DNA of 41,649 nucleotides from a virus. Its lineage: Duplodnaviria; Heunggongvirae; Uroviricota; Caudoviricetes. Position 1 is the stretch's first letter. The number at the start of each line of letters is the position of its first letter. Below the pieces are notes generated by a model. That model did not search any database. It saw only the letters and a list, made by a program, of their open reading frames with translations, and was not told the DNA's origin. The stretch lies in the IMG/VR virus record IMGVR_UViG_2718217885_000012, positions 1 to 41,649 of that record; one strand, 5' to 3'. A program made the position numbers and the translations under genes. Positions 527 to 41,649 of the stretch are shown here, piece by piece.

Positions 527-2668
527 TCACTTAAAAGGAGTGTTTATCCTAACAACTCTCAAATAAACATCTCTTATATTTTCACCTCCATTTGGCCTTA
601 AAATTGTTGCTGAAATAACTCCACTTTGTGAAGCAGATACTGTTGCGTTATATACTAATGAACTATTGAATTGTTGAGCGTGTATTTGCCTTGATGTTGT
701 TTCAATTTGCTCTCCGGCTCTCATCATAACTGCATGTTCTGAAAAACACCCGCCAGCACCAGTTGTTGTTGTCGCTGTAACCTCAACTCTATAGAAATAC
801 ATAGCAAGCACACCTGAGTTTACTGAATTATTTGGAACTGGCACTTGTACGGTTATTGAGACTGGGCCGCTATCAACTCCTGTTGTCTGAGCACACCAGC
901 CAATTTCACCATTCTGAGATATTAATGTGAATATGCATCGATCTTTTGTCCCAGCGTTTACCTGATACGTTGTTGTATAGGTGGCGCCATAGAAATGCTC
1001 TACGGTTATGGCAGTACCGAAGTTCTCTCCCCAACCAGTCCATGAAGGCCAGATACTGGCATTGCTTTTAATGGCTACGCCATTATTGATGCACTTCAGA
1101 GACACTTTCCCATTATTACAAGAACTCAAGAGCACAGGGACTCCAGGAATGCTGTTCCTTAGTGTTATCTCAACATCCGGCTGCTCTGCGGTTACCAACA
1201 TTAATGGCTCGACTGTTCTTGGAACCGTATTGAGCGGTATGTTAATCTCCATGTCACGCACTCGCGTCCTTGTACCGCCACATAGAAATGCGCACACACC
1301 ACCTACATTAGCAGGAAGATAAAGTCGAACACCTTCAAAAGACAAATCAAAAACATCCGATTGAGAATTTGTGATGATTTGAATAAGGTGTATAGGGCCG
1401 TTAACATTTTCTCCCGTAAAATTACTCTTACTGGTGATGTTTCTGTAAATACCACCTGTTCCTGATACTTTTGCCGCAAACACTGGTGTGTCCGTCATGG
1501 TGCAAACCAAACCATCAACAACACACCCTGTTGACCCCGTGAGTTGTAAAGTTACATTGCAGCCGCCGTATCTGTTAGATAGAGGTTCTCCGAACTCACC
1601 ACAGTTTGTTATAGAACCACTAGTGTTATTGATATACATCAGGTGTGACGGACCATACGCACCGAAACTTTCGTCATGCCGCAATGTCCCATACACGTAC
1701 TCAATATTGCATCCTGCAAAGTTGTTAATAAGTGCGCATGAATAGTGTGTACAATAGATGTTAGAGAATAGAGAGCCTCTAAAATCACCCTCATAACCAG
1801 AAACAAGGAAGTCGTAGCGATTATCACTGGTTTCACCGACTGCCATCGCATTAATCAATTTGAAACGATACGCGTTTGAATTCATCCCGATAAAGCCACA
1901 GAACGCAGCTTCCCACGGGCGAGTAATTCCATAGCGAGTGGTTGTTGTGCCCCCCAAAGGATAGCCGCCTTTATAGACAGCATTAAATCCCATAATGGTC
2001 ACATCAGGATTCCTGTTCATGAAGACTAGAAATCCAGTTTTCTCATGAGTTATTCTAGCACCGTTAAAATCAATATATGCACCAGCGGGGGGAGTGATGA
2101 CATTTTCCTCATTCATCACCATACGATATGTGGAACCTCTCTTCATGAGGCATCTTCCAGTCATAATAGCATTAGTCACCGCCACTGTATCATCAGCTAC
2201 ACCATCTCCAATTGCTCCATATTGCTCTGGCGTTGCCCAATATGACAAACTATCCGCTACTGTACCGGCCAAGTATCCAATTTTAGTTGCACCATCTTCT
2301 TCAGACAGCTCACTTCGAAATTGATCAGGGTCGTACTTCAGCACATTCGGAAAATAGAACTGCTGCACACCGTACGCATCATAAACAGCCATAGAATGGC
2401 CTTGCACAGTTACGAACTTGGCAATCTGTCCGTTATATACCGGATATCCAGCAGCGTTAATGATGATTGGTTGCGAAACAGGAACGTGAGAACCATCTTC
2501 GTTCTCCACATAAACCTGAATCTGGTTTTCAGGGTTTACCGGGTCAGTGTCAATTTTTCCGATATAAATTTTACCATTGGCATTTGCTTTAAACGAGCGA
2601 GCTAAAGTAAATAACTGACTTGGTTGTGAAACAACAACGTTGTATAATTGTTCTGGCATAATAAACAT
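527..2668 (-). CDS. Tailspike protein (P22 gp9-like N-terminal head-binding domain, divergent receptor-binding body)
   Basis: N-terminal ~120 aa (NVVVSQP...[26 protein letters not shown]...[15 protein letters not shown]...[10 protein letters not shown]) matches the P22 tailspike head-binding domain by recall; rest is Gly/Thr/Asn-rich, consistent with a beta-helix; last gene before the att site. Alternative start at the fourth codon. Confidence 0.85.
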
Positions 2669-2681
2669 TCCGGAGAAAATA

Positions 2682-3182
2682 ATGAGTAAGAGACGTCACG
2701 AGGTAGTAACTCGGGAGCGCCTTATGGAGGTTCTCGATTACAATAAAGAAACAGGAATTTTCACTTGGAAAAAGAAATTAAGCGCCAGAGGTGCTGTTGG
2801 GAAAGTTGCTGGCACAATTTCTTATGGATATAACGCAATTAATATTGATGGCGTAAGATATTTTGCACATAGACTTGCCTGGCTGTATGTATATGGCGAA
2901 TGGCCCAAACAAGAGATTGACCACATTGATAGAAACAGAAGAAATAACGCAATCTCAAACCTTAGGGATGTCAGCAGAGTCGTAAATGCATTAAATGTCG
3001 GACCTCGAAATAGCAATGCTGGAATCAAGGGGGTAACTTTCTGTCAAGCCAGAAATCAATGGCAAGCGCAGATAAATGTCTCAGGTAAAAACATAACCCT
3101 TGGGAGATTCAACACCATTGATGAAGCGGCTATAGCTTATAAGGCAGCAAACATGGTTGCTGACCATCTGTTGAGTAGGTAA
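2682..3182 (+). CDS. HNH homing-type endonuclease (HNH plus AP2-like DNA-binding region)
   Basis: Motif region [36 protein letters not shown] typical of phage HNH_3 endonucleases; GGAG RBS 7 nt upstream of the ATG at 2682; sits antisense between ant and the tailspike. Confidence 0.7.
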
Positions 3183-3292: not shown

Positions 3293-4228
3293 TCAGTAGT
3301 TATGTACTGAAGGAGGTAATTCTTTATTCTTAAGTCTCATCCATGCGGAAAGATTCGTTGGTCCGTCTGGCTCATTGATATCAACATCTCGTGTGTGATT
3401 GATTAAAACGTCTCTCGCCATTCCGATAACATACGAGAACTCATGACCATAGTCGTAGCATCTGCCGGAATAGTTCGATTGAATTTGTTTTAGCGCCGGA
3501 TACAGTTCGCGGAATAATGCCTGTGAACGGTTGGCATAATCCCATAACCATACAAGGCTGTTTGCTTCTTTTGCAGAAAGCTCGTTGGTTTTCCTCTCTT
3601 GTTTGCCAATGAACTCACCTTCAAGCGGAACGCGAGCAGCAAGTGATAGTGCTTCGGTAAACTGCTCCTCACTGATTTCTTTGTACGAACATCCAAAATG
3701 GGATTTCAGTGACGACCACATGGTGATCATCGCCTTCGCCTGTTTTTCTTTTGGCAGAGACTGACCGCGACTCATGACGAGTTGTTTAATGGCTTCCTGC
3801 TGTTCAGTGGTGATTTTACCCGGCAACGCCTTTTTAGCTTTGCGTGGGTTAACTACATGGCCTTTAGTCCAGTAGTCATGCAGCACGCTAAAGCATTCCT
3901 CCTGGTACTGAATCAGTTTATCACGGATGTCAGCACGAACTTTCTCAGGGTTGATGCTGAACAGCCATCCATTTAACTTCTTCAAAGGAAGGCAGAGTAG
4001 CTTACGAAGCTTCCCATCAGCGGCAACCATGTTCATATGAACACAGTTGAATTTGCTAATCTGCTTCATGAGTTTTGTTTGCTGCGTTGACCAGCTCATT
4101 CCAAGGTTTTCAACGATTGGCTTCATCGCAACGTATGCAACTCCGGCAGCCATGGCGGTGATAATTTGCTGACCGTTGAATGGTACGTAAGAGGTGTTCA
4201 CTGCTTCTAAAATTGCTATACTATTCAT
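3293..4228 (-). CDS. ant: Antirepressor Ant (P22 immI)
   Basis: [26 protein letters not shown]...[35 protein letters not shown] matches P22 Ant by recall; the longer ORF from 4294 is probably N-terminally overextended. Confidence 0.85.
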
Positions 4229-4296
4229 GTTGGTTTTTCTCCACGGATTTACTGACAACCGAAGCCCTGACTGTTCCCGCAGTTGGGGCTTCAACT

Positions 4297-4458
4297 TTAC
4301 GCGCCAATGCGCCCTTCCTTCTTAAAGCTTTCCATTACTCTCTGATAAATCTCAGAGTTAACAGACCGACCATTCTCTTCCGCCACCTTGCGTACCAAAT
4401 CCAATACTTCTTTAGGCCACCGCAAATTGAACTGCGGCATTTTTCTTGCGCCTTGCAT
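4297..4458 (-). CDS. arc: Arc repressor (ribbon-helix-helix)
   Basis: [48 protein letters not shown] is near-identical to P22 Arc by recall; 53 codons from the internal Met. Confidence 0.9.
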
Positions 4459-4551
4459 ATTCCACTCCATTCCATTAAATGATAGCACCGTACTACTATT
4501 GAAAGCGTACTACTACCGTTCTAGCATGTCAACAAATAACAGGAGAGCGAC
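4459..4551. promoter_or_regulatory. immI divergent promoter/operator region (Pant / Pmnt)
   Basis: Intergenic region between divergent arc and mnt; contains ATGATAGCACCGTACTACTAT (resembles the P22 arc operator by recall) and a second CGTACTACTA copy 21 bp away. Confidence 0.5.
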
Positions 4552-4791
4552 GTGGCTAGAAACGATCCACAATTTAACGTAAGAATGCCAAGTGAAATCA
4601 AGCAGCAGCTTACTCACATTGCGGCAACAAACAGGCGCTCTATCAATGCTGAAATCATAGCTGCAATACAGCTATGGATTAAGATTAACAGAGAAAAGGT
4701 CATACCATCGACATCTCAAGATCTCACAAAAACAGAGAAGGAAGCAATGGATATTGCAATTAGCGTACTTAAGAAGATTCGAGGCCAATAA
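4552..4791 (+). CDS. mnt: Mnt-like ribbon-helix-helix repressor
   Basis: N-terminus MARNDPQFNVRMPSEIKQQL...NRRSINAEI resembles P22 Mnt/Arc-family RHH proteins; GTG start with AGGAGA RBS; divergent from arc-ant. Confidence 0.75.
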   Translation: MARNDPQFNVRMPSEIKQQLTHIAATNRRSINAEIIAAIQLWIKINREKVIPSTSQDLTKTEKEAMDIAISVLKKIRGQ

Positions 4792-5138
4792 TGAGCAGTA
4801 AGGAGCAATACTTAAAAGTTACTTTTGAGTCTTTTAGTAATTACTTGACTTCATTCAAAAAAACTTATGTATGCCCAATATGCAGCAATACAAACTGGAC
4901 TCTTTTAGCACCGGAGCATCTTAAAAAAGATGATGGTGTTGAAGTTATAGGCCCATCCATACCAGGTAAAAGCTTGCCTAATAATCCTGTTAATCAAGAT
5001 ACTTATAGCAACGATAGTCTTAACATGGTAGCCATGCAATGCACCACTTGCGGTTTCTTCCACTTTTTTAGTTTAAACAAAGTTAGTGAAAATATCTCTT
5101 CTGGAAAATTCGTAAAGGGTGATGGAGATAATGTTTGA
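4791..5138 (+). CDS. Hypothetical protein with two CxxC pairs (zinc-ribbon-like); first gene of the cassette downstream of mnt
   Basis: ATG overlaps the mnt stop (TAATG); CPIC and CTTC motifs; AT-rich coding sequence by eye. Confidence 0.55.
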   Translation: MSSKEQYLKVTFESFSNYLTSFKKTYVCPICSNTNWTLLAPEHLKKDDGVEVIGPSIPGKSLPNNPVNQDTYSNDSLNMVAMQCTTCGFFHFFSLNKVSENISSGKFVKGDGDNV

Positions 5139-5631
5139 CCAACATGTTCACAATAAATCACCTAGTATTTATGGAGATGCTCAAAGCCAACATGAAAACC
5201 TTGACTTTGACAAATCGTTATGGAGTTCAATAGAGAACGCTAAATATTCAGAGTATTACAGACCAACTGGCAGAAATCCGTCAAAGGAACCACAAATATT
5301 TAGCCTACAAGAAGAGCAACACAAAGAAGAAGGTCGTGATACCGTGAAACGTTTAGAGCTATACGGGGTTGCAGTTGCTATCATTGGTTCTATCGTTGCC
5401 GCCACATGGACGATTCGAGGCACTATAGATGATAAAGTTGAATCATCACGACAAGAGCTAACAGGAAACATCCAAACCAGTAAGGCAGAGATAATGGCTA
5501 CTATCCAAAACAACCAATCAGTATTACAGTCAAGGATTGATAACACTGATCAAAAATTAGACTCAACAAACCAATCTCTTTATAAGGTATTGGCTATATT
5601 AGAGTCTCAAAAAGACAAACGTTCTCAATAG
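5131..5631 (+). CDS. Hypothetical single-pass membrane protein with C-terminal coiled-coil-like region
   Basis: Overlaps the upstream stop; GGAG RBS before the ATG at 5131; hydrophobic segment LYGVAVAIIGSIVAATWTI; heptad-like Q/S/L-rich C-terminus. Confidence 0.55.
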   Translation: MFDQHVHNKSPSIYGDAQSQHENLDFDKSLWSSIENAKYSEYYRPTGRNPSKEPQIFSLQEEQHKEEGRDTVKRLELYGVAVAIIGSIVAATWTIRGTIDDKVESSRQELTGNIQTSKAEIMATIQNNQSVLQSRIDNTDQKLDSTNQSLYKVLAILESQKDKRSQ

Positions 5632-5711
5632 TTTCTTGATTTATTACCTATAGCTGCATGATTGATGTCTGTTGAAAATCATGCAGCATTGATAAATCTA
5701 AGGAGATCGGC

Positions 5712-6032
5712 ATGTACATATCGCTCTCTACCATTTTTTTCATCTGCTTAGCTATTTGGCTTTTAAGAATATGGCAGGATTGCTCTGTCAGCCATGCTGC
5801 TGCGGTGAGAAATAAAAACGCCCTCATAAAAGAAGCTGAAAACGTTGTCTTATCAATGGATCACCTTTCATGGACCGAGATGACTACAGGGCAACAAGAG
5901 GTTTATGAGTGTGCGATTGAGCGGTTAAGGCTGCTTAAATCGTACAAAAAGAACCACGCTCCCGACTCATTCCCATTCCTGAAAGAATGGCCGAGATGGT
6001 ATGACCCGAAAAAAGCAACCATCAACCGCTAA
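5712..6032 (+). CDS. Hypothetical protein with N-terminal membrane anchor
   Basis: AAGGAG RBS 6 nt upstream; hydrophobic N-terminus ISLSTIFFICLAIWLL; ends 9 bp before the convergent ejection-protein gene. Confidence 0.55.
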   Translation: MYISLSTIFFICLAIWLLRIWQDCSVSHAAAVRNKNALIKEAENVVLSMDHLSWTEMTTGQQEVYECAIERLRLLKSYKKNHAPDSFPFLKEWPRWYDPKKATINR

Positions 6033-6040
6033 CCAACTTT

Positions 6041-8047
6041 TTACTGCTGGGCTTTCTCACTTGAAGCCTGAATTAGAGGTGTAAGAGTTTCAGATACCCG
6101 TCTGATCGCTCTATCATAAGCAGTACTTCCTTTTGGCGTGTTTGCTAACTTTAGTAATGCGTTCCTCATCGCGCGTGACTCATAGCCCCTGCCAGCCATA
6201 CCGATACCAGCTCCTACTGCCGCAACTTTTGCAAACATTGGATTTGTAACAGACGCAAGAGCTGTTATCAGCGCTGCTGGACCAGCTACCATTTGCCCTG
6301 TTAGTGGGCTTGCGGCAGCAGTAGCTGCCTGTCTAGTGGAATCAAGATATTTCATTATCCCATCAAGCTGTTTCCCATGCTCTCCTCTGAAGAACGTCTC
6401 AGCCTGCTTCCGATTCCTTTTCATTTCATTAATAAACTTCTCAACGCTAAGCTTTCCTGAATCGCTTGTCGCCTTATCCATTGCACGCTGAACAAGTGCT
6501 GCTCTAGCATTTTGACGCCCACTATCATCAAGCAATCGATAAAGTTGCGCCCTTTCCGCTGGGCTTTGGCTGAATACTAGTTTAGTGACATCTTCTGGCG
6601 TTGTTTTACCACTCTGAATAGCTTTTTGGACACGTGTATTGCTCATCATGTCGTTGAACTTTGCCCAAGAACGATCAACACGCGACATGTTTTGCGCTTC
6701 CTTCGCACCTAGTTTTGCGCCAACCGCTTTTTTCATGTCTGTTGTGTATGCGTTATAAACAGACTGCGCAGCTTTCTCCAGCGTATCTCTATCGACCTCG
6801 TCAGGTGCTGCCATAAAGCGCTTACGTAAGTTTGTACGGTTTTCTCTAGCTAATTGCAGGTTATTTGGACCGCTGGTGATGTCATTTCTAAACTGTTGAA
6901 GGACAGAAACAGCTGAGCGGTCTTGCGATACTCCTGGGCGAGTTAACTTGGAAATCTGCTCATCAATTGCTTTCACTGTTCCAGTGATGTCAACAGGAGT
7001 ATCCCCCATCAAACTGATGATCCTGTCGTACCGCTTGCCAGCAGCCTGAATAAATTGCTGCTGACCACGAGTAGCTGATTGGTAAAGTTGTGCGTCAGAT
7101 ATTCCACCAACATTATCGCTAAATGTTCTAACTAAATCTTCCCTGGCCTTTTGCTGTGCATTTCTTATCCCACCTGTTCCGGCTATTGGGATTCGCTCAG
7201 CCATAGCTCGTGCTTGCTTACCAATATTTGTTCCCGGTTCCACAAGATCTGTTGTCATCAGTGGCAAGTTGTTCTGCTTGGCAAAGTCAATCTGAGCTTG
7301 TTTTTCAGGAGCAATCTTACCCATAGCAGAACGAGACACTGCGCTTGCGGTGTTTTCTACACCCTTCAGTACCCCACCAAGACCAGCAGAAATTGCAGTT
7401 TGAACTGGATTAACATTCTCACCGCCAGCGATCTTAGTGGCACCCTGTAAAGCTAAATCAGTAGCGCCTGATTTTAGTGTTGCACCTACAACAGACGCAG
7501 CTCTACCTGCTGGAGTGAATGCAAGAGCATTTGCCAAGAATGACGTTATATCCTGCGGTGACAAACCAGGCTTGTTAAGTGCATATTCCCCTGAAGGAAG
7601 GGTGACTATGGAATTTCCCTTCTCATCCTTCCGGATTTTCCCGCCAATACTTTGCAGTATTTTCTCCTGTGAAGCGTCGGAACCAAATAGCTGCCCCAAT
7701 CCAGCACGCAGCGCATCAGTGCTTAAGCTATTAAGCTCTGGAGCAGACCCAACATTTTGCAGTCTCTCCATTTCTGGTGTCATTCGGCTTTCACCGGTAA
7801 CGGCATCGCGCATTGCAGCACCTAAAACAGCCCCTTGCTCAGCAGAGCGATCTAGTCCTTCCTTCTGCTGAGTGGCAAGCTGTGCATATCCTGATGCAAG
7901 TGAGTTGTCTGCTGGTGATTGCTGAACACCTTGTTGTGTTGGTGCTGACTGACCAGCAAAATACTCATCAATGGCGGTGCCAATATCTTCCGTGCTCGTA
8001 CCATCAGGGAAGGTAAATGTCTTACCGTTTGCAGTTACTTTCATCAT
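6041..8047 (-). CDS. Ejection (internal virion) protein, P22 gp16-like
   Basis: Position and size within the P22-order gene block 14-7-20-16; low-complexity A/G/Q-rich protein; homology not searched. Confidence 0.6.
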
Positions 8048-21452: not shown

Positions 21453-21890
21453 TCATAGAAGGCATTGCGTCCTGATGTATTCCTGCAAGTAGTTAACCTG
21501 CGCGGTTATCCTGTCGATTCCACTTCGGAGACGGTAATAATTGAGTTCAGCATCTGCTGTAAGTCCTGGACTTTCTCCATCGCCCATGCCGCTGGCTCCG
21601 GTCGTTGACTTTGCACAGGTGGCGGAGACTTGCAGGCGCTTACGACCAGCAGAAACATCAGCACGGAGGCTTTCGATAGTCGCGTTAGCATCAGCAAGCT
21701 CCTTTGTATATCTGGCGTCGAGTTCTGCTACGTCACGTTGACGCTTCTGCATGTCAGCGATGATGGATGTGGCTTTGTCGCGCTGGGCTTTGTAGGCGAT
21801 GGCGTTATCACGGTAATGATTAACAGCCCATGACAGGCAGACGATGATGCAGATAACCAGAGCGGAGATAATCGCGGTTACTCTGCTCAT
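21453..21890 (-). CDS. Rz: Spanin inner-membrane subunit Rz
   Basis: N-terminus [31 protein letters not shown] matches lambda Rz by recall; directly follows the endolysin gene. Confidence 0.85.
21506..21697 (-). CDS. Rz1: Spanin outer-membrane lipoprotein Rz1 (embedded in Rz, +1 frame)
   Basis: ORF wholly inside Rz; lipobox-like LVVSAC followed by a Pro-rich segment. Confidence 0.65.
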
Positions 21891-22363
21891 ACCTCAATCT
21901 CTCTGACCGTTCCGCCAGCCTCTTTGAATTTTGCAATCAGGCTGTCAGCCTTATGCTCGAACTGACCATAACCAGCGCCCGGCAGTGAAGCCCAGATATT
22001 GCTGCAACGGTCAATTGCCTGACGAATATCACCACGATCAATCATCGGTAAAGCGCCACGCTCTTTAATCTGCTGCAATGCAACTGCATCCTGGCTTTTC
22101 GGAGAGAAGTCTTTCAGGCCAAGCTGCTTACGATAGGCATCCCACCAACGGGAAAGAAGCTGGTAACGTCCGGCTGCTGTTGATTTGAGTTTGGGGTTTA
22201 GCGTGACAAGTTTGCGAGGGTGATCTGAGTAATCAGTGAATAGCTCTCCGCCAACAATGACGTCATAACCATGATTTCTGGTTTTCTGACGTCCGTTATC
22301 TGTTCCCTCTGACCACGCCAGCATATCGAGGAACGCCTTACGTTGATTATTGATTTCCACCAT
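21887..22363 (-). CDS. R: Endolysin (lytic transglycosylase), lambda R-like
   Basis: 158 aa; [49 protein letters not shown] matches lambda R by recall. Confidence 0.9.
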
Positions 22364-38964: not shown

Positions 38965-39183
38965 ATGTACTTAACACTTCAGGAGTGGAACGCACGCCAG
39001 CGGCGCCCAAGAAGCCTTGAAACAGTTCGTCGATGGGTTCGCGAGTGCAGGATATTCCCTCCTCCGGTTAAGGATGGAAGAGAGTATCTGTTCCACGAAT
39101 CAGCGGTAAAGGTTGACTTAAATCGACCAGTAACAGGTAGCCTTTTGAAGAGGATCAGAAATGGGAAGAAGGCGAAGTCATGA
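38965..39183 (+). CDS. xis: Excisionase Xis
   Basis: MYLTLQEWNARQRRPRSLETVRRWVRECRIFPPPVKDGREYLFHESAVKVDLNRPVTGSLLKRIRNGKKAKS matches lambda Xis (72 aa) by recall; overlaps the int start. Confidence 0.95.
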   Translation: MYLTLQEWNARQRRPRSLETVRRWVRECRIFPPPVKDGREYLFHESAVKVDLNRPVTGSLLKRIRNGKKAKS

Positions 39184-40231
39184 GCGCCGGGATTTACCCC
39201 CTAATCTTTATATAAGAAACAATGGATATTACTGCTACAGGGACCCAAGGACGGGTAAAGAGTTTGGATTAGGCCGAGACAGGAGGATAGCAATCACTGA
39301 AGCTATACAGGCCAACATTGAGTTATTTTCAGGACACAAACACAAGCCTCTGACAGCGAGAATCAACAGTGATAATTCTGTTACGTTACATTCATGGCTT
39401 GATCGCTACGAAAAAATCCTCGCCAACAGAGGAATCAAGCAGAAGACACTCATAAATTACATGAGCAAAATTAAAGCAATAAGGAGGGGTCTGCCTGATG
39501 CTCCACTTGAAGACATCACCACAAAAGAAATTGCGGCAATGCTCAATGGATACATAGACGAGGGCAAGGCGGCGTCAGCCAAGTTAATAAGATCAACACT
39601 GAGCGATGCATTCCGAGAGGCAATAGCTGAAGGCCATATAACAACAAACCCTGTCGCTGCCACTCGCGCAGCAAAATCAGAGGTAAGGAGATCAAGACTT
39701 ACGGCTGACGAATACCTGAAAATTTATCAAGCAGCAGAATCATCTCCATGTTGGCTCAGACTTGCAATGAAACTGGCTGTTGTTACCGGGCAACGAGTTG
39801 GTGATTTATGCGAAATGAAGTGGTCTGATATCGTAGATGGATATCTTTATGTCGAGCAAAGCAAAACAGGCGTAAAAATTGCCATCCCTACAACATTGCA
39901 TGTTGATGCTCTCGGGATATCAATGAAGGAAACACTTGATAAATGCAAAGAGATTCTTGGCGGAGAAACCATAATTGCATCTACTCGTCGTGAACCGCTT
40001 TCATCCGGCACAGTATCAAGGTATTTTATGCGCGCACGAAAAGCATCAGGTCTTTCCTTCGAAGGGGATCCGCCTACCTTTCACGAGTTGCGCAGTTTGT
40101 CTGCAAGACTCTATGAGAAGCAGATAAGCGATAAGTTTGCTCAACATCTTCTCGGGCATAAGTCGGACACCATGGCATCACAGTATCGTGATGACAGAGG
40201 CAGGGAGTGGGACAAAATTGAAATCAAATAA
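39161..40231 (+). CDS. int: Tyrosine integrase Int
   Basis: 356 aa; MGRRRSHERRDLPPNLYIRNNGYYCYRDPRTGKEFGLGRD... near-identical to lambda Int by recall; catalytic region HELRSL...LLGH...Y present. Confidence 0.95.
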   Translation: MGRRRSHERRDLPPNLYIRNNGYYCYRDPRTGKEFGLGRDRRIAITEAIQANIELFSGHKHKPLTARINSDNSVTLHSWLDRYEKILANRGIKQKTLINYMSKIKAIRRGLPDAPLEDITTKEIAAMLNGYIDEGKAASAKLIRSTLSDAFREAIAEGHITTNPVAATRAAKSEVRRSRLTADEYLKIYQAAESSPCWLRLAMKLAVVTGQRVGDLCEMKWSDIVDGYLYVEQSKTGVKIAIPTTLHVDALGISMKETLDKCKEILGGETIIASTRREPLSSGTVSRYFMRARKASGLSFEGDPPTFHELRSLSARLYEKQISDKFAQHLLGHKSDTMASQYRDDRGREWDKIEIK

Positions 40232-40305
40232 TGATTTTATTTTGACTGATAGTGACCTGTTCGTTGCAAGAAATTGATAAGCAATGCTTTTTTATAATGC
40301 CAACT

Positions 40306-40320
40306 TAGTATAAAAAAGCA
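40306..40320. repeat. att core (right prophage junction; phage P' arm to the left, bacterial arm to the right)
   Basis: Exact 15-bp copy of 91-105; preceded by GCAATGCTTTTTTATAATGCCAACT (lambda P'-arm-like, 75 bp after the int stop); followed by CAGGCTTCA and ybhC. Confidence 0.85.
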
Positions 40321-40365
40321 GGCTTCAACGGATTCATTTTTCTATTTCATAGCCCGGAGCAACCT

Positions 40366-41649
40366 GTGAACACATTTTCAGTTTCCCGTCTGGCGCTGGC
40401 ATTGGCTTTTGGCGTGACGCTGACCGCCTGTAGCTCAACCCCGCCCGATCAACGTCCTTCTGATCAAACCGCGCCTGGTACCTCTTCTCGCCCGATTCTG
40501 TCGGCAAAAGAAGCGCAGAATTTCGATGCTCAACACTATTTTGCATCCCTGACACCAGGTGCTGCAGCGTGGAATCCTTCCCCGATTACCCTGCCTGCGC
40601 AACCTGACTTTGTTGTCGGCCCGGCGGGCACTCAAGGTGTAACGCATACCACGATTCAGGCGGCGGTAGATGCGGCAATTATCAAGCGTACCAACAAGCG
40701 CCAGTATATTGCCGTGATGCCTGGTGAGTATCAGGGAACGGTATATGTCCCTGCCGCTCCGGGTGGAATTACTCTGTACGGTACAGGTGAAAAACCGATT
40801 GATGTGAAGATTGGGCTTTCCCTTGATGGTGGCATGAGCCCTGCCGACTGGCGTCACGACGTCAACCCGCGCGGCAAATATATGCCAGGTAAACCAGCGT
40901 GGTATATGTACGATAGCTGCCAGAGCAAACGCAGCGACAGTATCGGTGTTCTCTGCTCTGCGGTCTTCTGGTCACAAAACAATGGCCTGCAACTGCAAAA
41001 TCTGACCATCGAAAACACGCTGGGCGATAGCGTAGATGCAGGTAACCATCCGGCGGTGGCACTGCGTACTGATGGTGACCAGGTACAGATTAACAACGTT
41101 AACATTCTCGGTCGTCAGAACACCTTCTTTGTCACCAACAGCGGTGTGCAGAACCGTCTGGAAACCAACCGTCAGCCGCGTACGCTGGTGACCAACAGCT
41201 ACATTGAAGGGGATGTGGATATCGTTTCTGGTCGCGGCGCAGTGGTGTTCGATAACACCGAATTCCGCGTGGTGAACTCACGTACTCAGCAAGAAGCGTA
41301 TGTGTTTGCACCGGCTACGCTGTCCAACATTTACTACGGTTTCCTCGCCGTAAACAGCCGTTTCAATGCTTTCGGTGATGGTGTGGCGCAACTGGGCCGC
41401 TCGCTGGATGTTGATGCCAATACCAACGGTCAGGTGGTGATCCGTGATAGCGCCATCAACGAAGGTTTTAACACGGCTAAACCGTGGGCCGATGCGGTGA
41501 TCTCTAATCGTCCGTTTGCGGGTAATACCGGCAGCGTAGATGATAACGACGAAATACAGCGCAATCTGAATGACACTAACTACAACCGCATGTGGGAATA
41601 CAATAACCGCGGCGTGGGTAGTAAAGTGGTTGCAGAGGCGAAGAAGTAA
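40366..41649 (+). CDS. ybhC: Host lipoprotein YbhC (pectinesterase-family putative acyl-CoA thioesterase)
   Basis: GTG start; lipobox LTAC; MNTFSVSRLALALAFGVTLTACSS... recognised as E. coli YbhC by recall; lies outside the right att repeat; stop at the window end. Confidence 0.85.
   Translation: MNTFSVSRLALALAFGVTLTACSSTPPDQRPSDQTAPGTSSRPILSAKEAQNFDAQHYFASLTPGAAAWNPSPITLPAQPDFVVGPAGTQGVTHTTIQAAVDAAIIKRTNKRQYIAVMPGEYQGTVYVPAAPGGITLYGTGEKPIDVKIGLSLDGGMSPADWRHDVNPRGKYMPGKPAWYMYDSCQSKRSDSIGVLCSAVFWSQNNGLQLQNLTIENTLGDSVDAGNHPAVALRTDGDQVQINNVNILGRQNTFFVTNSGVQNRLETNRQPRTLVTNSYIEGDVDIVSGRGAVVFDNTEFRVVNSRTQQEAYVFAPATLSNIYYGFLAVNSRFNAFGDGVAQLGRSLDVDANTNGQVVIRDSAINEGFNTAKPWADAVISNRPFAGNTGSVDDNDEIQRNLNDTNYNRMWEYNNRGVGSKVVAEAKK

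What the first reader, a model, noticed from the sequence alone, without database searches (positions are those of the whole stretch)
4791..6032. Three-gene AT-rich cassette co-transcribed with the mnt repressor at the sieA position
Directly downstream of mnt and translationally coupled to it (TAATG overlap) are three genes with no homologue I can recognise: a 115-aa protein with two CxxC pairs, a 166-aa single-pass membrane protein with a coiled-coil-like tail, and a 106-aa N-terminally anchored protein. Being in the mnt operon implies expression in the lysogen. In P22 the segment between the last ejection-protein gene and mnt carries the superinfection-exclusion gene sieA. The coding sequence is visibly AT-rich compared with the flanking virion genes, suggesting acquisition as a moron. 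This is my top candidate for an undescribed prophage-encoded exclusion or defence system.
Basis: partly seen in the sequence, partly recalled or inferred. Interest (0 to 1): 0.8.

Follow-up and report, generated by a model that had tools for sequence, protein, structure and literature searches.

The report
Repressor-linked prophage membrane gene pair
Three uncharacterised prophage genes sit behind the Mnt repressor where phage P22 keeps its exclusion gene sieA; two of them are a conserved zinc-ribbon plus membrane-helix pair that in other prophages almost always follows the main lysogeny repressor, so they are a good but unproven candidate for a new phage-exclusion system.

Summary
Three real genes (115, 166 and 106 aa) lie at 4791-6032 between a P22-type mnt and the gene 16 homologue. 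ORF1 overlaps mnt by TAATG.

The "three-gene cassette" is really two units.

Unit 1 is ORF1 plus ORF2. ORF1 is a four-cysteine zinc ribbon. ORF2 has a disordered N-terminus, one TM segment and a ~70-residue helix. The pair is conserved, the two genes overlap, and it is the most AT-rich stretch of the window. In 12 other prophage types from E. coli, Providencia and viral contigs, the same pair sits directly downstream of different CI-type (HTH + S24) repressors, at the lambda rexAB position.

Unit 2 is ORF3, an N-terminally anchored 106-aa protein with near-normal GC. It is the constant neighbour of this gene 16 lineage whatever lies upstream. A relative follows cI in phage mEp043.

None of the three matches SieA, RexA/B, PADLOC, Pfam, NCBIfam, PDB sequences or any solved or viral structure.

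My best reading is lysogen-expressed, inner-membrane phage-exclusion or abortive-infection cargo. That rests on position and architecture only. Function and transcription are untested.

The parts
4499..4527 (+). Pmnt-like sigma-70 promoter (TTGAAA, 17 nt spacer, TAGCAT)
   Evidence: Found by the promoter scan. Both hexamers align with the annotated P22 Pmnt, while the operator sequences between them differ.
4552..4791 (+). mnt-like ribbon-helix-helix repressor gene (79 aa, GTG start, AGGAG ribosome-binding site at 4541)
   Evidence: Pfam Arc 4.8e-13 and phrog_2685 9e-32. The N-terminus MARNDPQFNVRMP parallels P22 Mnt. GC is 0.40. This allele (98.7% identical) always co-occurs with ORF1-ORF2.
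4791..5138 (+). ORF1: 115-aa cytoplasmic four-cysteine zinc-ribbon protein (RefSeq WP_024203682.1)
   Evidence: The ATG overlaps the mnt stop as TAATG. C28, C31, C84 and C87 are invariant in 14 homologues. It hits phrog_4293 (unknown function) at 4.7e-31. Only 16 proteins reach E<=1e-3 (14 of them real relatives, listed) among 1.84 billion 50%-identity representatives. The AF2 core is a zinc ribbon flanked by two helices, pLDDT 55. Fold searches return only generic zinc ribbons, none with E<=0.001.
5131..5631 (+). ORF2: 166-aa bitopic membrane protein (disordered N-terminal ~70 aa, TM ~75-95, ~70-aa helical stalk; WP_024222613.1)
   Evidence: It overlaps ORF1 by 8 nt. One TM segment. AF2 gives a single helix 70-164 with pLDDT above 90 for 100-160. 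The stalk motif TWTxSN..K...RQEL...E...R.DR.E.K..S..K.T is conserved. Hydrophobic periodicity is 3.6-3.67 residues. A homologue follows the ORF1 homologue in every locus apart from the remote ORF1-like gene in L071.
5631..5707 (+). Structured intergenic region (inner 11-bp stem 5654-5686). The outer stem pairs the ORF3 Shine-Dalgarno sequence (AAGGAG, 5701-5706). It marks the junction between the two modules.
   Evidence: RNA fold gives -25.9 kcal/mol, z = -3.1, and 0 of 200 shuffles fold as well. It has no U-tract and is not called as a terminator. Homology to ORF3-only prophages starts at 5694.
5712..6032 (+). ORF3: 106-aa N-terminally membrane-anchored protein (WP_000275950.1)
   Evidence: Strong AAGGAG ribosome-binding site. 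TM at 1-22. It hits phrog_10450 at 3e-52. GC is 0.436. In 24 viral contigs and 19 further E. coli genomes it is adjacent and convergent to the gene 16 homologue, whatever lies upstream. Its relative mEp043_049 lies directly after cI.
4297..4458 (-). arc (context: divergent immI partner, part of the same mosaic block as mnt-ORF1-ORF2)
   Evidence: ORF list and annotation of identical DNA. It is 97.9% identical wherever ORF1-ORF2 are present and 40-47% identical elsewhere.
6041..8047 (-). gene 16 homologue (ejection protein; context: convergent neighbour 8 nt from the ORF3 stop)
   Evidence: ORF list. Pfam Phage_P22_gp16 is precomputed on near-identical loci. It is always linked with ORF3.

Best explanation
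The region holds two separate pieces of prophage cargo placed where they will be made in the lysogen.

Module A is ORF1 plus ORF2. It is a translationally coupled pair.
- ORF1 is a small, acidic, cytoplasmic zinc-ribbon protein.
- ORF2 is a single-pass inner-membrane protein. Its long charged N-terminal tail most likely stays in the cytoplasm, and its conserved ~70-residue helical stalk most likely lies in the periplasm.
- The pair rides on the mRNA of a lysogeny-maintenance repressor: Mnt here, CI in almost every other prophage that carries it.

I propose that module A is a two-component phage-exclusion or abortive-infection device that acts at the inner membrane, by the same logic as lambda RexA/RexB. 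ORF2 would oligomerise through its small-residue-rich TM segment and its stalk. It would either obstruct the DNA-delivery conduit of an incoming phage or open the membrane. ORF1 would be its cytoplasmic partner, sensor or regulator.

Module B is ORF3. It is a small membrane-anchored protein that travels with this gene 16 lineage and fills the slot that sieA fills in Salmonella P22-like phages. I propose it is a non-homologous, SieA-like exclusion factor.

Shown:
- the gene structures, conservation and pairing;
- the modularity;
- the genomic contexts;
- the lack of homology to known systems.

Inferred:
- transcription from Pmnt in the lysogen;
- membrane topology;
- an ORF1-ORF2 complex;
- any anti-phage activity.
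For: Pairing:
- An ORF2 homologue follows, and overlaps, every ORF1-family homologue examined.
- Even a remote ORF1-like gene in L071 is followed by an overlapping coiled-coil plus TM protein.

Context:
- In 12 prophage types with different CI repressors, the pair lies immediately downstream of the repressor on the same strand and ahead of N, ral or kil. This is the lambda rexAB slot. The repressors carry HTH + Peptidase_S24 and form 12 clusters at 90% identity.
- In the window the pair is behind Mnt, a structurally unrelated lysogeny repressor.
- The only other contexts are prophage ends.
- In the Providencia locus L011 a strong intrinsic terminator follows the pair.

Precedent for the slot:
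- The cI-N interval is a recognised hotspot that holds rexAB and bstA, and it shares the highly expressed repressor promoter (PMC8585504).
- The interval between gene 16 and gene 9 holds sieA, an inner-membrane blocker of DNA injection (PMC10883804).

Expression signals:
- The Pmnt hexamers are conserved with P22.
- ORF1 is coupled to mnt by TAATG.
- No terminator is detected up to the end of gene 16.

Acquisition and architecture:
- The block has the lowest GC in the window.
- Architecture: ORF1 has four invariant cysteines and no TM segment; ORF2 has one TM segment and a confidently modelled long helix with invariant polar residues.

ORF3:
- It is linked to gene 16 in 24 of 24 viral contigs, including copies only 66% and 41% identical.
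- A homologue lies behind cI in mEp043.
Against: - There are no functional data of any kind. The argument is guilt by position plus architecture.
- No match at E<=1 to any PADLOC defence model. No similarity to SieA, RexA or RexB.
- The structure models are weak or uninformative: ORF1 has pLDDT 55, and ORF2 is a single helix.
- ORF2 topology is only weakly indicated. K+R counts flanking the TM segment are 2 versus 1 in most homologues. In the remote L071 variant the coiled coil precedes the TM segment, which would put it in the cytoplasm.
- One E. coli genome carries a truncated ORF2 of 140 aa.
- The family is rare: 14 real 50%-identity clusters in about 15 billion proteins, and 41 of 5426 complete E. 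coli genomes hold the full region.
- Co-transcription of ORF3 with mnt is not established.
- No literature mentions these proteins.
Confidence: 0.5

Rival explanations
1. The genes are lysogenic-conversion or fitness cargo unrelated to phages. The lysogen-expressed membrane proteins would alter envelope physiology, for example stress tolerance, colonisation or survival in the host.
For: They occupy the same moron positions and carry the same expression logic. Many carrier strains come from cattle, food or patients. The mnt region of a P22-like E. coli prophage is strongly induced in macrophages (PMC9928086).
Against: ORF1 is cytoplasmic and ORF2 is an inner-membrane protein with no surface-exposed or secreted part. 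The occupants of these exact slots that I know to be characterised are phage-directed: rexAB, bstA and sieA. The module occurs in several genera and prophage types rather than tracking one pathotype.
Confidence: 0.22
2. ORF1-ORF2 take part in the prophage's own lysis-lysogeny control. An example would be a membrane-tethered sensor that modulates repressor or antirepressor activity or induction. That role would explain the tight link to repressor genes.
For: The pair has a near-exclusive association with lysogeny repressors: 12 CI types plus Mnt. It is translationally coupled to mnt.
Against: Mnt (ribbon-helix-helix) and CI (HTH + S24) are unrelated proteins with different operators, so a specific partnership with both is unlikely. 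The pair also occurs away from any co-oriented repressor. Most P22-like and lambdoid phages lack it: it is found in only N7 and HZ41 among 50,697 phage records. It is therefore dispensable for regulation.
Confidence: 0.12
3. ORF1-ORF2 are a toxin-antitoxin-like addiction pair. ORF2 would be a small membrane toxin and ORF1 its neutraliser, stabilising the prophage.
For: It is a two-gene overlapping pair, one member a single-TM protein with a small-residue-rich TM segment. The upstream Mnt/Arc-type ribbon-helix-helix fold is common among antitoxins: weak FitA, HicB and RelB-like hits.
Against: No hit to any toxin-antitoxin family in Pfam, NCBIfam or PADLOC. At 166 aa, with a long conserved extramembrane helix, ORF2 is unlike known small membrane toxins (my own knowledge). 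A toxin-antitoxin pair that triggers on infection would itself count as defence.
Confidence: 0.1
4. The ORFs are chance or decaying reading frames with no function.
For: All are annotated only as hypothetical proteins. One genome carries a truncated ORF2.
Against: Homologues at 23-40% identity keep length, the four cysteines, the TM segment and the stalk motifs. Gene order and overlap are conserved across genera. Ribosome-binding sites are good.
Confidence: 0.02

Closest known systems
Phage lambda RexA/RexB (abortive infection, cI operon)
   Same: Both are two-gene modules made of a cytoplasmic protein and an inner-membrane protein. Both lie directly downstream of the lysogeny repressor and upstream of PL/N. 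In one homologous locus (L011) the pair is followed by a terminator.
   Different: No sequence or profile similarity: hhalign probability is at most 0.12%. By my own recollection (not tested here), RexB is a multi-pass membrane protein, whereas ORF2 has one TM segment and a long helix. RexA is 279 aa with no zinc ribbon; ORF1 is 115 aa with four cysteines. In the window the pair follows Mnt, not CI. No phenotype is known.
Phage P22 SieA (superinfection exclusion; blocks DNA injection at the inner membrane)
   Same: ORF3 has the same genomic slot between mnt and gene 16, convergent with gene 16, and is likewise a small inner-membrane protein in a P22-like prophage.
   Different: No homology. 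The FxRYPxEAxxFNK motif is absent. SieA shows about three hydrophobic stretches, against one in ORF2 or ORF3. P22 sieA has its own promoter after t_mnt. Here no terminator or promoter is detected.
BstA (prophage BTP1 abortive-infection protein downstream of cI)
   Same: It has the same conserved synteny with the prophage repressor and presumed sharing of its promoter (PMC8585504).
   Different: BstA is a single protein that localises to sites of phage DNA replication (PMC8585504 abstract). No PADLOC model matched ORF1-3. The proteins here are a zinc ribbon and a membrane helix.
Generic zinc-ribbon / rubredoxin-like domains (e.g. Pfam RUBY_RBDX, Zn_ribbon_13; NrdR, Elf1)
   Same: ORF1 has two CxxC knuckles on beta-hairpins. 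There are recurrent sub-threshold Pfam hits in 10 of 14 and 7 of 14 family members, and the top fold matches are zinc ribbons.
   Different: No hit reaches a curated threshold. The N-terminal helix, the conserved (S/T)(I/L)PG motif and the acidic tail are specific to this family.

Membership tests
SieA (P22 superinfection exclusion protein, types A-C) | Detectable sequence homology to SieA | tested here: not met
   BLASTP of ORF1-3 against P22 SieA gives a best E of 5.7. tblastn of SieA against the window gives a best E of 3.2. hhalign of the ORF2 and ORF3 profiles against SieA gives probability at most 0.64%. Only type A (P22) was available. Types B and C were not compared directly.
SieA (P22 superinfection exclusion protein, types A-C) | Conserved cytoplasmic motif FxRYPxEAxxFNK (PMC10883804) | tested here: not met
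   A regular-expression search finds the motif in P22 SieA at residue 145. It finds none in ORF1-3 or in any of the six frames of the window.
SieA (P22 superinfection exclusion protein, types A-C) | Multi-pass inner-membrane protein | tested here: not met
   Hydropathy shows about three hydrophobic stretches in SieA, one in ORF2, one in ORF3 and none in ORF1.
SieA (P22 superinfection exclusion protein, types A-C) | Located in a P22-like prophage between the homologues of genes 16 and 9 | tested here: met
   ORF1-3 lie between gene 16 (6041-8047) and the tailspike (527-2668), next to mnt, arc and ant.
SieA (P22 superinfection exclusion protein, types A-C) | Excludes superinfecting P22-like phages by blocking DNA entry | not testable with these tools
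   This needs plating and DNA-injection assays.
RexAB (lambda abortive infection) | Homology to RexA and RexB | tested here: not met
   hhalign of the ORF1 profile against RexA gives probability 0.06%, and the ORF2 profile against RexB gives 0.12%. No PADLOC hit.
RexAB (lambda abortive infection) | Two genes co-oriented immediately downstream of the lysogeny repressor | tested here: met
   The pair follows 12 different CI-type repressors in homologous loci and follows Mnt in the window. This concerns synteny only, not family membership.
Known anti-phage defence systems (PADLOC-DB v2.0.0) | Match to any defence-system protein model | tested here: not met
   There are 0 families at E<=1 for Mnt and ORF1, ORF2 and ORF3. 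The library dates from 2023, so later systems are not covered.
Zinc-ribbon fold (ORF1) | Two pairs of metal-ligand cysteines on beta-hairpin knuckles, conserved across the family | tested here: met
   C28, C31, C84 and C87 are invariant in 14 sequences. The AF2 core has strands at each CxxC. Pfam zinc-ribbon hits are sub-threshold only. Metal binding itself was not tested.
Mnt/Arc ribbon-helix-helix repressors (upstream gene) | Arc-like domain, N-terminal similarity to P22 Mnt, and divergent arrangement with arc-ant and sar | tested here: met
   Pfam Arc 4.8e-13, above its cutoff. The control region and N-terminus align with P22. sar RNA scores 95.6 bits at 4229-4296.
Two-component spanin (Rz-type i-spanin), considered for ORF2 | N-terminal TM segment with a periplasmic coiled coil, encoded in the lysis cassette with an o-spanin partner | tested here: not met
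   ORF2 has a ~75-aa N-terminal tail before its TM segment. It gives no spanin PHROG or Pfam hit. It lies in immI, whereas a block of three consecutive minus-strand ORFs at 21453-22670 occupies what I take, from P22 gene order and not by test, to be the lysis cassette.

The most novel reading that the evidence does not exclude
ORF1-ORF2 define a previously unrecognised two-component anti-phage system. It would consist of a zinc-ribbon partner and a single-pass membrane effector with a periplasmic helical stalk. It has specialised in hitch-hiking on lysogeny-repressor operons: CI in lambdoid prophages and, uniquely here, Mnt in a P22-like prophage. Functionally it would be an analogue of RexAB built from unrelated proteins. 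ORF3 would be a second, non-homologous replacement for SieA that co-travels with the ejection-protein gene it may act against.
Probability: 0.35. Interest if true: 0.7.

Novelty: new variant of a known kind. Interest (0 to 1): 0.58.

Why it matters
Prophage genes expressed from repressor operons are a proven source of exclusion and abortive-infection systems such as RexAB, BstA and SieA. The RexAB mechanism is still poorly understood after more than 60 years of study (PMC8585504).

This work adds a compact, experimentally tractable gene pair with no known relatives. Its link to lysogeny repressors holds across 12 CI types and one Mnt, in E. coli, Providencia and uncultured phage contigs. That makes a sharp, testable prediction: the pair is lysogen-expressed and acts at the membrane against phages.

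The work also shows that the E. coli lineage of P22-like prophages replaces sieA with an unrelated, gene-16-linked membrane protein. This bears on how superinfection exclusion against ejection proteins evolves.

If these predictions fail, the region is simply another set of hypothetical morons.

Tried and rejected
- Word-indexed search of 5.8 billion proteins with ORF1 found only its own cluster. The exhaustive HMMER search was needed to find the family.
- tblastn of ORF1 and ORF2 in 50,697 phage records found only N7 and HZ41.
The narrower alignments A4 and A7 worked.
- PDB sequence-profile searches with the ORF1 and ORF2 families gave nothing below E = 0.046. The hits were Churchill, eL42 and the influenza HA2 coiled coil, all judged compositional.
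- Foldseek of the ORF1 model against PDB and BFVD gave no hit at E<=0.001, only generic zinc ribbons and Lar-like proteins. The model is low-confidence, so I draw no fold assignment beyond "zinc ribbon".
- The ORF2 model is one helix, so no fold search was run on it.
- Weak Pfam hits to CapR, DUF4407, QseG/YfhG, CyanoTRADDas_TM, Apolipoprotein and XhlA are all far below threshold and inconsistent across family members. I rejected them as homology.
- The intergenic hairpin was considered as a terminator. I rejected this because it has no U-tract and the scan does not call it. An Rfam mir-2013 hit there is spurious: 24.9 bits against a gathering score of 70.
- Literature searches on sieA diversity, rex-position hotspots, mEp043, phage N7 and the three RefSeq accessions, plus the DefensePredictor supplements, found no description of these proteins.
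- The genome contigs and metagenome-contig scans were not run, because viral contigs and exact-protein look-ups already gave enough contexts.
Full report
**1. What is in the sequence**

The window is a P22-like (Lederbergvirus-type) prophage.
- It has a lambda-type integrase at 39161-40231, next to a pectinesterase-family host gene.
- The region of the finding is 99.8% identical to Escherichia phages N7 and HZ41.
- The three-gene segment (4791-6032) matches over at least 80% of its length in 41 of 5426 complete E. coli genomes.

On the minus strand lie ant (3293-4294) and arc (4297-4458). The sar antisense RNA is at 4229-4296 on the plus strand (Rfam, 95.6 bits).

On the plus strand, in order:
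- A promoter, TTGAAA-17-TAGCAT, at 4499-4527. Its hexamers align with the annotated P22 Pmnt.
- A 79-aa Mnt-like gene at 4552-4791, with a GTG start and an AGGAG ribosome-binding site. It hits Pfam Arc at 4.8e-13.
- ORF1 at 4791-5138. Its ATG shares the A of the mnt TAA stop (TAATG).
- ORF2 at 5131-5631, overlapping ORF1 by 8 nt.
- An 80-nt structured spacer.
- ORF3 at 5712-6032, with a strong AAGGAG site.
- Eight bases later, the stop codon of the convergent gene 16 homologue (6041-8047).

The scan finds no intrinsic terminator between mnt and gene 16.

P22 itself has mnt, orf59a, t_mnt, P_sieA, sieA and then gene 16 in this interval. The positional claim is therefore correct.

GC content:

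| Segment | GC |
|---|---|
| ORF1 | 0.351 |
| ORF2 | 0.381 |
| mnt | 0.40 |
| ORF3 | 0.436 |
| whole window | 0.472 |

The ORF1-ORF2 block is the lowest-GC 900-nt stretch of the 41.6-kb window.

**2. The three proteins**

ORF1 (115 aa)
- It has no TM segment and has cysteines at 28, 31, 84 and 87.
- An exhaustive HMMER search of 1.84 billion cluster representatives found only 16 hits at E<=1e-3, of which 14 are real relatives at 30-38% identity.
- In the family alignment all four cysteines are invariant, as are L19, G88 and F93. F12, W36, L38, P58 and M82 are nearly invariant. Most members end in an acidic tail.
- AlphaFold (8-sequence alignment, pLDDT 55) gives a helix at 12-25, strands at each CxxC knuckle, a helix at 95-103 and a disordered middle at 42-77.
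- Foldseek against PDB and BFVD returns only generic zinc ribbons, none at E<=0.001.

ORF2 (166 aa)
- It has one TM segment at about 75-95.
- AlphaFold gives a disordered N-terminal ~68 residues and one continuous helix at 70-164. pLDDT exceeds 90 over about 100-160.
- Homologues vary freely in the N-terminal part. They conserve the TM segment and the stalk motif TWT(I/V)SN.I..K...RQEL..I..S..E...R.DR.E.K..S..K.T...L, with invariant polar residues.
- The hydrophobic periodicity of the stalk is 3.6-3.67 residues rather than a 3.5-residue heptad. Only 1 of 2000 shuffles reaches the observed signal at 3.667, against 90 of 2000 at 3.5. One length difference between homologues is an 11-residue indel.

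ORF3 (106 aa)
- It has an N-terminal TM segment and a conserved soluble part: NKN.LI.EA ... A..RL..L..YKKNHAPD.(Y/F)PF..(E/D)WP.

Database searches
- None of the three hits Pfam, NCBIfam or PADLOC at meaningful thresholds.
- Profile searches with the ORF1 and ORF2 families against PDB sequences gave nothing meaningful.
- All three fall in PHROGs of unknown function.

**3. It is two modules, not one cassette**

ORF3 is separate from ORF1-ORF2.
- Nineteen further E. coli records match only query positions 904-1242. That is window 5694-6032: ORF3 plus 18 nt upstream.
- In those prophages ORF3 lies next to the same gene 16, but what lies upstream differs. One has a truncated mnt. Another has other small genes.
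- In 24 IMG/VR contigs ORF3 is always adjacent and convergent to the gene 16 homologue. This holds even for copies 66% and 41% identical, whose gene 16 is 87% and 37% identical.

ORF1-ORF2 belong with the local arc and mnt.
- ORF1 and ORF2 occur only together with this window's arc (97.9%) and mnt (98.7%) alleles.
- ORF3-bearing loci that lack them have mnt at most 53% identical.

The mosaic units are therefore [arc-mnt-ORF1-ORF2] and [ORF3-gene 16].

The junction coincides with a stable stem-loop at 5631-5707 (-25.9 kcal/mol, z = -3.1). Its outer stem pairs the ORF3 Shine-Dalgarno sequence. It has no U-tract, so I do not call it a terminator.

**4. Where the ORF1-ORF2 pair lives elsewhere (the key result)**

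- Distant ORF2 homologues (40-46% identity over the TM-stalk half) lie in lambdoid E. coli prophage contigs. They sit directly downstream of a 235-aa CI-type repressor on the same strand. An overlapping 125-aa gene precedes them, and it is plainly an ORF1 homologue. A gap and the N gene follow. This is the lambda cI-rexA-rexB-PL-N layout.
- The same arrangement holds in Providencia chromosomes behind four different CI proteins.
- It also holds in IMG/VR contigs L021-L023 and L063-L070.
- The upstream proteins all carry Peptidase_S24, usually with HTH_3.
- They fall into 12 clusters at 90% identity. A thirteenth belongs to L071.
- In L071 a remote ORF1-like zinc ribbon again overlaps the end of a CI gene. 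A 101-aa coiled-coil plus C-terminal-TM protein follows it.
- In the Providencia locus L011 a strong intrinsic terminator lies 16 nt after the pair.

The only contexts not adjacent to a repressor are prophage extremities.
- One lies beside smpB and dinI (L010).
- One lies between bacterial genes and phage head genes (L013/L014).

Every homologue in the ORF1 family that I examined is followed by an overlapping ORF2 homologue.

ORF3 shows a similar pattern. Its relative in phage mEp043 (38% identity, E = 7e-13) is the single gene between cI and PL/N.

**5. Interpretation**

The pair rides on the operons of two structurally unrelated lysogeny-maintenance repressors, Mnt and CI. The simplest explanation is that it exploits promoters active in the lysogen, not that it partners with a particular repressor.

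Characterised occupants of these slots are phage-directed:
- rexAB and bstA in the cI-N hotspot (PMC8585504);
- sieA between genes 16 and 9 (PMC10883804).

Mnt acting to maintain lysogeny is annotated in the P22 record. That Pmnt is active in the P22 lysogen is established P22 biology that I cite from my own knowledge.

I therefore read ORF1-ORF2 as a two-component exclusion or abortive-infection module acting at the inner membrane, and ORF3 as a SieA-like analogue.

Topology is inferred.
- ORF1 has no signal sequence, so it should be cytoplasmic.
- The 75-residue, highly charged N-terminal tail of ORF2 is unlikely to be translocated.
- K and R residues are slightly enriched on the N-terminal side of the TM segment.
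- This favours N-terminus in and C-terminus out, with the conserved stalk in the periplasm, roughly 100 Å long if straight.
- The L071 variant has its coiled coil before the TM segment and does not fit this picture. It remains unexplained.

I cannot distinguish an injection block from a RexB-like membrane lesion.

**6. Comparison with known systems**

- No homology to SieA: BLAST E of at least 5.7; the motif FxRYPxEAxxFNK is absent; there is one hydrophobic segment against about three.
- No homology to RexA or RexB.
- No match to any PADLOC model.
- The resemblance to RexAB is one of logic and synteny only.
- No paper, and none of the DefensePredictor supplements held, mentions WP_024203682, WP_024222613 or WP_000275950.

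**7. Verdict**

The genes are genuine, uncharacterised and probably lysogen-expressed cargo. The new finding is the conserved repressor-linked ORF1-ORF2 pair and the separate, gene-16-linked ORF3.

Function remains unproven. I put about 0.5 on phage exclusion or defence. The main rivals are other lysogenic-conversion roles, a role in the prophage's own regulation, and a toxin-antitoxin-like pair.

Noticed in passing
window 31069-32102: The CI-type repressor of this same prophage (31069-31701, 210 aa) is followed at the rexAB position by a 134-aa protein with a signal-peptide-like N-terminus ([20 protein letters not shown]...). It has no Pfam hit. It is a second candidate for lysogen-expressed cargo in the window.
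   Followed up: partly
window 2640-3182: An HNH_3 + AP2-domain (homing-endonuclease-like) gene lies between the tailspike gene and ant. In phage N7 the tail protein and antirepressor genes are adjacent with no such gene, so this looks like a recent insertion.
   Followed up: partly
window 4229-4296: A full-length sar antisense RNA (Rfam RF00262, 95.6 bits) lies at the arc-ant junction. The immI regulatory circuit is therefore of the complete P22 type, although the arc and mnt operators differ from those of P22.
   Followed up: partly
L071 3082-4589 (IMGVR_UViG_3300038797_000105): This locus holds a remote variant: a CI-type repressor, then an overlapping 139-aa ORF1-like zinc ribbon, then an overlapping 101-aa protein whose coiled coil precedes a C-terminal TM segment. 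That order is the reverse of ORF2, and the ORF2 profile does not detect it.
   Followed up: partly
L048-L051 3824-3958; L011 5785-5919: In the Providencia prophages L048-L051 and L011 a conserved 44-aa ORF sits between the CI gene and the ORF1 homologue. It is absent from the E. coli versions.
   Followed up: no
L004 2990-3990; L047 2217-2952: In other P22-like E. coli prophages the mnt-ORF3 interval carries different small cargo. Examples are a 69-aa protein, a 74-aa two-TM protein, a 121-aa minus-strand protein with an HECAH motif, and a 119-aa signal-peptide protein. The interval is a variable moron hotspot.
   Followed up: no
L053 3341-3763 (GCA_047262175.1): One E. coli genome carries ORF2 truncated to 140 aa, while ORF1 and ORF3 are intact.
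   Followed up: no
window 39161-41649: A lambda-type integrase with an Arm DNA-binding domain is followed by a pectinesterase-family host gene that runs off the window end. From my own knowledge this resembles ybhC beside lambda attB, which would mean a P22-like prophage integrated at the lambda attachment site.
   Followed up: partly
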